A stretch of 64,000 nucleotides of DNA from Eledone cirrhosa (taxonomy: Eukaryota). Under the pieces are notes generated by a model. That model ran no database searches, was not told the origin of the DNA, and worked only from the letters and a program-made list of their open reading frames with translations. The stretch spans positions 156,984,001-157,048,000 of the forward strand of contig OZ024741.1 of the NCBI GenBank assembly GCA_964016885.1, given 5' to 3'. Made by a program: the position numbers and the translations under genes. Below are positions 14,060-62,317 of this stretch, one piece after another. Position 1 is the first letter of the stretch. Each line of letters opens with the position of its first letter.

Positions 14060-14275
14060 CATGCACACCATAATTTGCTTTGGTGTCCTTTAAATATGTA
14101 TAATGAAATAAATATGGTTTTATAAATATAGTTTCCATTTATTAATATATTGTATTTTTACTCCAAAAATTTGTTGAGTGCTTTATATCAGTTATAAAAA
14201 TATTTGCTTAAAACATAACTTCTACATATATATATATATATATATATATATATATGTAGAAGTTATATTTAATTT
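14060..14275 (+). mobile_element. TA-associated element family 2, 3' fragment with mirrored terminus
   Basis: Homologous to 18640-18810 and 61298-61622; terminus ataacttctac is mirrored as gtagaagttat across the (TA)n tract. Confidence 0.75.
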
Positions 14276-14294
14276 GTATATAAATATACATATA

Positions 14295-14420
14295 TATTTC
14301 GTTTCTGAATTTGTTTAGCAAGATTCTTTATCTGAAATCGTGTGTTGAAACCGATATTGTTATACTTTGGGAGGGTCATTTTTATTGGCAACATGACCCT
14401 CCTAAAGTATAACAATATAC
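14295..14420. repeat. TA-embedded hairpin element, family 3
   Basis: tattgttatactttgggagggtcat / atgaccctcctaaagtataacaata inverted arms; related sequence near 43072 and 58140. Confidence 0.7.
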
Positions 14421-14483
14421 ATATATATATATATATATATATATATATATATATATATATATATATATATATATATATATTTA

Positions 14484-15195
14484 TATAACGGAATACTCTT
14501 ATGTTTTACCGGCGAAGATTCGAAACCGAATCTGAGCTTTCTCGCCTCTGGAAGTTCTCACCATTGTCTTGTCAAGACAACGATGATAAATGTACATTCC
14601 ATTTGACCTGTGACCCCAACCTCTTGGGAGACGATAAACACAGGGTTGACCATATATTAACCTCATATATCCATCCTTCTAACTTTAGCACTTATTATAA
14701 ATACAAGGAGTTAAGGAATTCAAAGCAGCAGTCAACGAGATAACGATGTAGCATCAGCAGATCTTTCACTCTGTCTTTCTCCTGGCCCTTACTGGCTTAC
14801 CTCCTCGGCCACCGAAACAGCCAGCCAGACAGCCATGCCTGCCTGACAGATTGACCATTACTACTATGAAAATAAGATATTCTAAGAATAGGCACACACG
14901 CACACATAGTAAATTCATATTGTTACATTATACTCTCATACTATTCTTCCTGCCATATTGTATCTGCAAGACACAACACAACTTATATACTATATCGTAT
15001 TCTCTGATACATGCATTCACGTAGCTCATAGAGCTACCAATTTAATGTAGCGACGGTTTATGTCATAAATAATACTGCTCGATGCGATGTGCAAATCGAA
15101 TATTGTTATTGTAAATAAACATTGTTAACAACTCAATCATGGCATTATTATTTTCATCAAAACTACCACACAAAGAATACAACTTATCCGTTACA
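14484..15195 (+). mobile_element. Solo-LTR-like element in TA tract
   Basis: Ends tataacgga...tccgttaca (short inverted termini, CA end), TATA-like tataaata near 14696, aataaa near 15114; no ORF. Confidence 0.55.
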
Positions 15196-15699
15196 TATAT
15201 ATACATATATATATATTATATATATATATGTGTGTATAATGGATTGATAGTACTGATGACATGATAAAATGCACCAAGTACATGCTGTAAAGTGGTTGGT
15301 GTTAGGAAAGGCATCCAACCATATAAGTCATGTCAAACTGAAACATATGAGAAAGACATGATCATCTGACTCGCCAAGAACTTTTCTATCCCATGCAAGC
15401 ATGGAAAATAGATGGCAAACAGTGATGATGATGACCTATATCATAATCATCATCACTGTTTAACATCCATTTTTCCATACTAGCATGGGTTAGATAAGTT
15501 GTCCCATTGTGGGACAAGTCAGATTAGGTGATCATGTCTTGCTCATCCAGAACTGATTCTGGCTTGGTTTCTACAGCTGGATACCCTTCCTAATGCAAAC
15601 TGCATGTACAGTAGTTTATATATATATATATACAAGTGCGTGTATGTGTGTGTGTGTGTGTGTGTATGTGTGTTATACAGTGTGATGACCCCAGACATC

Positions 15700-60420: not shown

Positions 60421-61297
60421 GGTGGATATGAGTGTATGCGTGCATGTGTTTGTGTGTTTGTGTGTATGTGTCTGTGTGGATGTGTGTGCACGTGAAGGTG
60501 TGTTCATATGTTTGAAGGATGGGCATTGGACTGTGACAGGCTGGCTGCTGTGAGAGTGTGGATGTGTGAGTGAGCGTGCACGCGTGAACTGACCGACATA
60601 AGGGGGTATACAAGAATGTATATGAATTTCTACATGTACGTATATACACACACACATTTTAGCAGTCGAGAGGGGCTGTATAGAAAAGAGGAGGTAGCAA
60701 ATATGGTGGTGACATGTATATTTCATTACCTGGTATAATCGTAAGAGAAACTGCTTAGCTTCAGATATGACAATATGGTGGTACAACCGTAAACAGCTAA
60801 GCTAGAAGGTGTGAAGTCATTACATGTGTGTAGGTGGATAGAGCCGCACATTTATATATACTTGTATGTATGGTCCTGTAACTTCTGGGAGAGTCATAGG
60901 GGTGCCGTAGTGATATACATCATTCCTAGGGCATTTTAAAACTCGGTGGAGACTATTCTCTTTCCAGGTTTGAATACAGCAGATTTCTACCAGAAAAGGA
61001 TAGAGAGGGTGAAAGAATGGAAGTGAGAAAGAAACACAGAAGGAGAATCGAACTCAGTACTCGACTGGTACTCTTTTGATTGAGCTTCAATGGATGAAAA
61101 GCAAAGTTGACCTTGGAGGGATTTGAACTGAGAGAGCAGAGAGCTAGAAGGAATAATGCACAGCATTCTGCTCAATGTTCTAACAACTCTGCCAATTCGC
61201 TGCCCTATATACATATATACAGATGCATATATATATATATATGTGTGTGCGTGTTTACATATGAGTATATTTTATATATATATATATATATATATAT

Positions 61298-61622
61298 GTA
61301 GAGGTTATATTTAATTTGTTGGGATTCAACAAGCTTAAACATTTTTTATAACTGATATAAAGCATTCAACAAGTTAGTGGAGTAAATATACAATATATTA
61401 ATAAATGGAAACTATATTTATAAAACCTTAATTATTTTATTATATATATTTCAACCGTTGAGGTTGTCTTTTTTCCGGGTATGTCAATATTTATTTATAA
61501 AACAAATCTGTCTTTTATCTGATGAAAGCGCACCATAATTTACCTTGGTTGCCCTTGAAATATATATAATAAAATAATTATGGTTTTATAAATATAGTTT
61601 CCATTTATTAATATATTGTATA
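61298..61622 (-). mobile_element. TA-embedded fold-back element, family 2
   Basis: Arms ~61386-61454 and ~61555-61622, tail on the left; homologous to 18441-18811. Confidence 0.85.
61513..61574 (+). ncRNA. Minimal type I hammerhead ribozyme motif
   Basis: ttttat-CTGATGA-aagcgcacca...tggttgccctt-GAAAT-ATAT-ATA-ataaaa; 6-bp stem I, palindromic loop III, AUA triplet. Confidence 0.78.
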
Positions 61623-61634
61623 TATATATATATA

Positions 61635-62070
61635 TATATTAATAAGAGGAATTCCAACTTTGTCTGATTTACTCGTTTTATTTACAATCCTTTAAAATGT
61701 ATAATGGTATTATAATGAAATAGTATGATAGAATATTAAATTCTAAGTGTTAATTGAACAAGTACTTTCATGCTTTCGCAATCTTCAGGTTCATAATGTG
61801 TGGTGACAGTCAAGTTTGCAATTTTCAACTGTTGAAAATTGCAAACTTAACTGTCACCACATATTATGGACCTGAAGATTGCGAAAGCATGAAAGTACTT
61901 GTTCAATTAACACTTAGAATTTAATATTCTATCATACTATTTCATTATAATACCATTATATATTTTAAAGGATTGTAAATAAAACGAGTAAATCAGACAA
62001 AGTTGGAATTCCTCTTATTAATATAATCTTCTATACACAATCATACACACCCGTGTATATTTACCTATCT
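61635..62070 (+). mobile_element. Near-perfect palindrome (195-bp arms, centre 61830) with hammerhead motifs and tail
   Basis: About 4 mismatches seen; g(a/g)ac-CTGAAGA-ttgcgaaagcat-GAAAGTACTT-gttc at 61868-61904 (+) and 61756-61792 (-). Confidence 0.9.
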
Positions 62071-62134
62071 ATATATATATATATATATATATATATATAT
62101 ATATATATATATATATATATATATATATATATAT

Positions 62135-62317
62135 ATGTTTGACCCCGACGGCAGAGCTCAAGCCGTTTTGACGGCTATTTCTGAAATAGCCGTCGAAACA
62201 GCTTGAGCTCTGCCGTCGGGGTAAAACATTTTCCTATTACCCACTCTACTACCCTAAGTATTGAGTACTCTGGTGCGTTATGGTCCATATGGTTCCTTAC
62301 CACACATCCTTCGTTTT
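62135..62317 (+). mobile_element. TA-embedded fold-back element, family 1
   Basis: Hairpin 62135-62229 centred at 62182 plus tail; homologous to 5987-6174. Confidence 0.88.

What the first reader, a model, noticed from the sequence alone, without database searches (positions are those of the whole stretch)
14159..62270. Covarying stem-loop in the 3' tail of otherwise unrelated TA-targeted elements
Seen: shortly before the terminal (TA)n, most tails have a small hairpin closing in GAGTRC. Examples: tactc..gagtg (14159-14180), tactc..gagta (19953-19970), tactc..gagtg (41841-41878), actctggaaaat..attttccatagagt (43701-43727), tactc..gagta (43938-43965 and 52259-52279), and related forms at 18745, 62263 and 6031. 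Compensatory variants occur: agctc..gagct (20609-20637), gctct..agagc (42209-42229), tacac..gtgta (62034-62057). Inference: a structure-conserved cis signal, such as an RT/endonuclease binding or priming site, shared across families. I do not recall it being described.
Basis: partly seen in the sequence, partly recalled or inferred. Interest (0 to 1): 0.8.

Follow-up and report, generated by a model that had tools for sequence, protein, structure and literature searches.

The report
Paired start-site hairpins in Penelope retroelements
The small hairpin is a conserved RNA signal of one clade of Penelope-like jumping genes, present twice in front of their gene, and element ends fall a few bases before each copy, so it probably tells the reverse transcriptase where to start copying.

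Summary
The hairpin is real. Its exact form is RCTC, a variable inner stem-loop, a 2-nt 3' bulge (TT/TA/TC), then GAGY-RC. The carriers are 5'-truncated, mostly fold-back insertions of Penelope-like elements (PLEs) in (TA)n, most likely of the Hydra clade, so they are related, not unrelated.

In public contigs the same hairpin lies downstream of Hydra-type RT/GIY-YIG genes (7 of 10 protein-selected loci that reach the ribozyme). It covaries and is absent from 114 copies with other hammerhead types.

New: all 5 intact 5' leaders carry two such hairpins about 62-68 nt apart. Elements end either just before hairpin 1 (short) or just before hairpin 2 (long), at a TAT/TATA match to the target. Reads of this species show both ends.

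Best reading: the protein docks on the hairpin and primes reverse transcription just upstream, so two hairpins give two start sites, the PLE 'tail'. Function is inferred, not shown.

The parts
5987..6186 (-). Family F2 fold-back insertion: inverted short copy, direct long copy, between TA runs
   Evidence: (arms 6064-6117/6121-6174)
6033..6058 (-). Hairpin 1 (ACTC, inner stem, TT bulge, GAGT-AC)
   Evidence: E 9e-4
14050..14226 (+). Family F1 3' fragment with decayed hammerhead, not inverted; left boundary approximate
14160..14181 (+). Hairpin 1
   Evidence: E 3.6e-3
18441..18811 (+). Family F1 fold-back; hammerhead core at 18623; hairpin near 18728-18751 decayed
   Evidence: not hit by the model
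19882..20017 (+). Family F2 copy cut inside hammerhead stem II, not inverted; hairpin 1 at 19946-19971
   Evidence: E 0.013
20513..20684 (+). Fold-back with variant hairpin 20610-20638 (TT bulge, GAGC, but no RC after it); membership uncertain
   Evidence: z -3.4; plus strand not hit
41784..41913 (+). Minimal fold-back with hairpin 1 at 41842-41879 (long loop)
   Evidence: (E 6.9)
42035..42277 (+). Fold-back with 3' half of a hammerhead and hairpin 1 at 42209-42231, the best match to non-window hairpins
   Evidence: (E 1.1e-5)
43481..43790 (+). Fold-back; type I hammerhead in the inverted arm (core at 43569, minus strand); hairpin 1 at 43701-43729
   Evidence: (E 0.41)
43860..44015 (+). Older fold-back with hairpin 1 at 43939-43966
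   Evidence: z -5.3; E 6.6
52129..52338 (+). Fold-back; hammerhead core at 52195; hairpin 1 at 52260-52280
   Evidence: (E 0.22)
61297..61618 (-).
   Evidence: (E 3.6)
61639..62069 (+). 195-bp-arm fold-back with hammerhead core at 61872 and a 44-nt tail holding an AC-rich stem-loop (62034-62057); probably another PLE type, not the same hairpin
   Evidence: no hit
62136..62316 (+). Family F2 fold-back; hairpin 1 at 62243-62268
   Evidence: E 9e-4
62233..62237 (+). Short end of family F2: junction into (TA)n after 62237, 5 nt before hairpin 1
   Evidence: table 7 (1250, 1269, 1310 reads in X15-X17)
62311..62316 (+). Long end of family F2: junction into (TA)n after 62315
   Evidence: table 7 (7638, 8600, 10940 reads)

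Best explanation
The elements are 5'-truncated, often inverted insertions of Hydra-clade Penelope-like retroelements. The template RNA (a tandem precursor) reads: ORF end, hammerhead, 40-60 nt linker, hairpin 1, spacer, hairpin 2 about 62-68 nt after hairpin 1, then the start codon 10-35 nt later. The element's RT/GIY-YIG protein binds the bulged hairpin (fixed outer stem and bulge; inner stem free in sequence). The nicked (TA)n target, whose two strands read alike, pairs with a UAU/UAUA stretch about 4-10 nt 5' of the bound hairpin and primes cDNA synthesis there, leaving that hairpin uncopied. Starting before hairpin 1 gives the short end. Starting before hairpin 2 gives the long end, whose 'tail' therefore contains hairpin 1. 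One long and one short cDNA joined head to head give the fold-backs. Shown here: motif, covariation, clade link, two hairpins per leader, end positions. Inferred: protein binding, internal priming, and how the two cDNAs are joined.
For: Clade link: Hydra diagnostics in proteins upstream of the hairpin. Hairpin in 7 of 10 protein-selected loci that reach the hammerhead, 2 more ending short in TA. Hairpin in 30 of 61 copies with Hydra-type hammerheads (one, L196, is spurious), 22 more end short, 9 neither; 0 of 114 other-type copies; no model hit in 73 such loci. Published Hydra consensi read by eye: clear at the 3' end of Hydra-2_Amil and Hydra-2_Ajap, a variant in Hydra-1_Crog, twice at the 5' start of Hydra-1_Ajap. 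Covariation: 97.5% of 160 cells paired, 18 two-sided changes, 0 of 500 shuffles as high, slid controls at most 55.6%; 18 distinct inner stems, 16/13/13 Watson-Crick against 8.9/4.3/5.4. Sense-strand bias: 7 G-U against 1 A-C in 257 cells. Two hairpins in 5 of 5 intact leaders. Long ends 4-8 nt before hairpin 2 in L120 and L125, about 8 nt in the L187 family; short ends mostly 2-14 nt before hairpin 1 in the window, at shared TAT/TATA and -3 to 13 nt in 12 same-family comparisons. Two discrete ends genome-wide. Internal RT starts at two sites bounding the tail were shown in vitro for a Poseidon PLE (PMC11167929).
Against: No binding or priming data. No Hydra ORF remnant in the window (120 proteins, no tblastn hit at E<=0.01), so window elements are assigned by motif, hammerhead and anatomy only. 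Hammerheads of families F2 and 52121 are atypical or partial. The long-end/hairpin-2 rule rests on 3 cases. Many non-window copies come from one assembly (G001) and are not independent; covariation counts ignore relatedness. Several window hairpins fold no better than shuffles. Hydra-1_Amil has only a weak match and Hydra-1_Obim none by eye. Short ends scatter from 0 to about 18 nt. The full-length copy in L125 begins exactly at hairpin 1, which fits RNA processing as well.
Confidence: 0.65

Rival explanations
1. The hairpin is an RNA-processing or transcript-end signal: the precursor is cut or terminated just 5' of each hairpin, and RT primes at the resulting 3' ends.
For: Same end geometry. 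The full-length copy in L125 starts at hairpin 1, as a cleavage product would.
Against: Ends scatter over about 15 nt and follow TAT/TATA matches. For the one PLE tested in vitro, initiation is internal and unprocessed RNA is the main substrate (PMC11167929). The 5'-end observation is a single case.
Confidence: 0.15
2. LINE-like ruler: hairpin 1 is bound as in stringent LINEs and sets the long end about 33 nt downstream; hairpin 2 is a redundant duplicate.
For: Hairpin 1 to TA distance is 29-40 nt (median 33.5, n=20) outside the window. LINE proteins bind a 3' stem-loop (PMC4176376, abstract).
Against: It leaves short ends unexplained, as these lack any hairpin. The distance is 33-60 nt in the window, while end-to-next-hairpin distances are tighter and alike for both ends.
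Confidence: 0.08
3. The motif works for another step: a DNA-level endonuclease/self-targeting site, or a promoter or translation element of the 5' leader; the end positions follow from the AT-rich linker alone.
For: Hairpin 2 lies 10-35 nt before the ATG. The tail was reported as needed for endonuclease recognition in Drosophila Penelope (as cited in PMC11167929).
Against: One-sided bulge, G-U over A-C bias and free inner-stem sequence point to the sense single strand. Other AT-rich stretches of the element are not dominant ends.
Confidence: 0.1
4. Chance small palindromes in AT-rich, repeat-rich DNA.
For: The loose version of the motif occurs in 47 of 1719 non-TA windows; several sites fold weakly.
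Confidence: 0.02

Closest known systems
Hydra clade of EN+ Penelope-like elements (Craig et al. 2021, PMC8557442)
   Same: (TA)n targeting, canonical type I hammerhead near the 3' end, tandem/inverted 5'-truncated insertions with a one-sided tail; the hairpin is present in its published consensi.
   Different: The paper's main text has no occurrence of 'hairpin' or 'stem-loop'. It gives PLE tails as 30-40 bp; here they are about 60-90 nt and contain the hairpin. Window copies carry no ORF.
Poseidon_Ac internal RT initiation (Frangieh et al. 2024, PMC11167929)
   Same: RT starts inside the RNA at two sites; the tail is the interval between them; a stem-loop is involved; both target strands are cut and extended.
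   Different: There the sites lie in one AC-rich stem-loop 111-118 nt inside the ORF of one element. Here two copies of a clade-wide bulged hairpin lie in the 5' leader, and ends map just 5' of each.
3' stem-loops of stringent LINEs/SINEs (UnaL2, ZfL2; PMC4176376 abstract, PMC1636434 listing)
   Same: A small stem-loop with an internal loop as the likely protein-recognition site; conserved stem with variable loop.
   Different: LINE stem-loops sit upstream of the priming site and are copied. Here the hairpin that sets an end lies downstream of it and is left out, and it is duplicated.
Naiad PLEs (PMC8557442)
   Same: (TA)n targeting and inverted structures.
   Different: Naiads lack canonical hammerheads; I did not see the motif at the six Naiad 3' ends shown.

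Membership tests
EN+ Penelope-like elements | Tandem or inverted 5'-truncated copies with a one-sided tail | tested here: met
   many different opposite-strand joints in reads, so inversions form per insertion
EN+ Penelope-like elements | Type I hammerhead in the pLTR | tested here: met
   Full motifs at 61519(+) and 43569(-); cores at 18623, 52195, 61872 by eye. Families F2 and 42030 keep only a 3' half. Rfam gave no hammerhead hit among the 150 rows shown. Activity not tested.
Hydra clade PLE | RT with C-terminal GIY-YIG, RWK and DKT motifs, CxCX5C linker, no CCHH | tested here: inconclusive
   Met, by eye, for L029, L067 and homologues that carry the hairpin. Not testable on window copies, which have no ORF. 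No tree was built.
Hydra clade PLE | Insertion into (TA)n | tested here: met
Hydra clade PLE | Hammerhead of the published Hydra type (self-complementary stem III) | tested here: inconclusive
   F1 and 43480 have a palindromic stem III but GAAAT instead of GAAAC; 52121 is one base off; F2 atypical
Naiad PLE | No canonical hammerhead; N-terminal endonuclease | tested here: not met
   Hammerheads present; hairpin-linked proteins have a C-terminal endonuclease
MITE / fold-back DNA transposon | Fixed terminal inverted repeats at both ends | tested here: not met
   One-sided tail, variable inversion joints and non-inverted copies
Described RNA family (Rfam 15) | Match at gathering score | tested here: not met
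   none of the 150 rows shown reaches its family's gathering score

The most novel reading that the evidence does not exclude
Hydra-clade PLEs carry a portable two-hairpin landing pad: each hairpin docks one RT subunit and fixes priming on a short UAU(A) template just upstream, so one leader programmes both cDNA arms of an inverted insertion. A hairpin placed behind any RNA would then direct its reverse transcription into (TA)n, a telomerase-like template-positioning element in a telomerase-related RT.
Probability: 0.35. Interest if true: 0.8.

Novelty: new variant of a known kind. Interest (0 to 1): 0.62.

Why it matters
How PLEs choose their reverse-transcription starts and why one end carries a tail is an open question; Craig et al. 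2021 call for mechanistic work, and one element has been assayed in vitro. A 20-30 nt motif conserved across animal hosts, duplicated, and placed just behind each end gives a direct mutational test. It is also a marker for classifying ORF-less Hydra fragments in genome annotation. The elements themselves are a known kind.

Tried and rejected
No whole genome is held for this window, so the genome-wide tail extraction was replaced by public loci and by reads. Rfam: nothing relevant. Hammerhead-plus-TA pattern in viral contigs: 12 matches, none a well-formed ribozyme by eye. Protein searches of viral contigs: no relative. Pfam gave no informative family for L029 or L067; the assignment rests on motifs and on PF00078/PF01541/PF26215 labels of some homologues. 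tblastn of 120 homologues against the window: nothing. No RNA holder listed. Naiad membership rejected (only part of the Naiad file was seen). Fixed MITE rejected. 62034 rejected as a compensatory variant. First anchor rule mis-anchored 5 of 39 hairpins; rerun with the nearest anchor, L212 dropped as spurious and L146 still mis-anchored (corrected in alignment A2). L196 is counted by the script but spurious. Supplements of PMC11167929 held as text had none of my terms; its figures S1-S2, which show the Poseidon stem-loop, could not be seen and bear on the comparison. Repbase consensi of the 21 other Hydra families were not available. Literature searches that found no description of the motif; subscription journals, Repbase Reports and Dfam are not covered. 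Earlier-findings look-ups were empty.

Full report
Setting. The window is AT-rich animal DNA (36% GC) full of microsatellites, LINE fragments and SINE-like repeats. It reminds me of cephalopod genomes, but that is recall and no call tested it.

Observation. The quoted strings exist. The sharper definition is post hoc. Thermodynamic support in the window is mixed: 5 of 13 sites with flanks have z < -2.

Anatomy. Most carriers read (TA)n, inverted copy, direct copy, AT-rich linker, hairpin, 33-60 nt, (TA)n, with arms of 20-100 bp. Two carriers (14159, 19953) are not inverted. Arms hold type I hammerheads or parts of them. This is the insertion pattern described for endonuclease-positive PLEs: an inverted 5'-truncated copy and a one-sided tail (PMC8557442, passages and sections 11, 15, 19; PMC3846280, passages). 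Three families recur: F1 (14159, 18745, 61362) and F2 (6031, 19953, 62243) have three copies each; the rest are single. Of 17 TA-flanked elements inspected, 9 have the clear hairpin, 3 a decayed or variant one and 5 none; one of the five (18825) has a different hammerhead type.

Which clade. In the supplement of PMC8557442 (parts 1, 2, 52, 53 and search passages) the six new Hydra consensi show, by eye, the motif clearly at the 3' end of Hydra-2_Amil and Hydra-2_Ajap, as a variant in Hydra-1_Crog, weakly in Hydra-1_Amil, not in Hydra-1_Obim, and twice at the 5' start of Hydra-1_Ajap, whose 3' end stops short. I did not see it at six Naiad 3' ends. I then collected loci without using the hairpin. 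Most have a non-palindromic stem III and no hairpin; those with the Hydra-type palindromic stem III mostly have it. [quoted passage not shown] ORF ends also precede the hairpin in L083, L094 and L103. Of 15 loci selected by protein alone, 10 reach the ribozyme: 7 have the hairpin, 2 end in TA before it, 1 lacks it. Over all fetched loci, 61 distinct Hydra-type ribozyme copies split into 30 with hairpin (L196 spurious), 22 ending short and 9 neither; 0 of 114 other-type copies have it. Many copies come from one assembly, G001, so these are not independent counts. The window has no Hydra ORF remnant, so its elements are assigned by motif and anatomy; I put Hydra membership at about 0.85-0.9.

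Covariation. On 27 non-window hairpins, 97.5% of 160 cells pair, with 18 two-sided changes against 4.5 in shuffles (0 of 500 as high); slid controls reach at most 55.6%. The number of pairs with such a change (4) was reached by 30 of 500 shuffles. Collapsed to 18 distinct inner stems anchored by sequence only, the first three inner pairs are Watson-Crick in 16, 13 and 13 against 8.9, 4.3 and 5.4. One outer pair changes from U-A to A-U in 2 sequences, and the closing pair is G-C outside the window but mostly A-U inside it. G-U outnumbers A-C 7 to 1, a mild sign that the sense strand matters. Relatedness is not corrected for.

The ends. Copies of one family end either short or long. In 12 same-family comparisons the short TA run starts -3 to 13 nt before hairpin 1. 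In the window the inverted copy always stops before the hairpin, mostly 2-14 nt, range 0 to about 18, often at a shared TAT or TATA (41783 and 42030 were misaligned by the script and read by eye). Reads of the same species laid on family F2 show two dominant junctions into (TA)n among the loose ends shown (569 rows not shown): after 62237, 5 nt before the hairpin (1250-1310 reads per run), and after 62315 (7638-10940), with smaller groups at 62304-62305 and many different inversion joints. Variants listed inside the hairpin keep a G-U pair, fall in the loop, or change the second bulge base to C; 37 variant rows were not shown.

The second hairpin. Of 8 rows where an ORF start was matched, 5 have an intact leader (L120, L123, L125, L126, L141) and all 5 carry two hairpins about 62-68 nt apart, the second 10-35 nt before the ATG; L187 keeps only the second, L118 has its leader replaced by an inverted piece, and the L128 row is spurious. 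In L120 and L125 the downstream copy of the same element ends 4-8 nt before the place of hairpin 2, at TAT or TATA; the L187 family gives about 8 nt. Both kinds of end thus obey one rule: a few bases 5' of a hairpin.

Mechanism. The simplest reading is that the protein binds the hairpin and the nicked (TA)n target primes on the UAU(A) just upstream. Two hairpins give two starts, and the tail is the interval between them, which is why hairpin 1 shows up before the terminal TA run. This matches internal initiation at two sites bounding the tail in a Poseidon element (PMC11167929, parts 1-2 of the text), where the landmark is a different, AC-rich stem-loop inside the ORF. Binding and priming are inferred. 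The main rival is RNA processing just 5' of each hairpin; L125, which begins at hairpin 1, fits it, but is one case.

Novelty. The element class, the clade and the tail are known. The duplicated bulged hairpin and its tie to both ends were not found in my searches, and the Hydra paper's main text never uses 'hairpin' or 'stem-loop'; PMC4209133 (passages) has no 'hairpin' either. Subscription journals and Repbase were not searchable. Earlier notes of this scan describe PLE fold-back stubs in other genomes but not this motif; I did not check them. Verdict: new variant of a known kind, interest 0.62.

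Noticed in passing
L015-L117 (majority class, e.g. L016, L031, L054, L095): TA-flanked PLE-like ends with a non-palindromic hammerhead stem III share a different downstream motif, TTGTGT(T)NGAC, and some longer ends add ACAACGGGGATGA; possibly an analogous start signal of another clade.
   Followed up: no
window 62026-62069: 44-nt tail with an AC-rich stem-loop behind a 195-bp fold-back; resembles the description of the Poseidon initiation stem-loop more than the Hydra hairpin.
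   Followed up: partly
window 43481-43700: The two arms of one fold-back carry hammerheads with different stem II sequences, hinting that two different RNAs templated one insertion.
   Followed up: no
window 6117-6121 and 62181-62183: In two F2 copies the inversion joint lies in the palindromic stem II of the hammerhead.
   Followed up: partly
window 18825-19210: 190-bp-arm fold-back with another hammerhead type (core at 19091) and no tail, followed by a tRNA-like repeat at 19211-19277.
   Followed up: partly
window 14211-14270, 41720-42290, 43417-44025, 61297-62330: Several independent elements stacked in the same TA runs, some tail to tail.
   Followed up: no
window 50389-51777 (-): 462-aa ORF with a signal-peptide-like start and dibasic sites; weak Atlas resemblance (0.79, a lead only) to prohormone/neuropeptide precursors; no Pfam hit.
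   Followed up: partly
window 21212-24329 (+): Near-intact LINE with endonuclease-like and RT-like frames (381 and 643 aa), RTE-like by recall; related fragments at 3253-4047, 16295-17035 and 25093-26179.
   Followed up: no
window 54678-55175 and 44011-45208: TA-flanked elements with terminal inverted repeats, mariner/MITE-like by recall; not PLEs.
   Followed up: no
L118-L132 (G001-G005 and others): Assemblies filed as bacterial hold contigs with animal-type PLEs and TA microsatellites, which looks like host contamination.
   Followed up: partly
L040 and L126: Related families whose hairpin 1 has a C-C mismatch in the outer stem (GACC), while hairpin 2 of L126 pairs fully.
   Followed up: no
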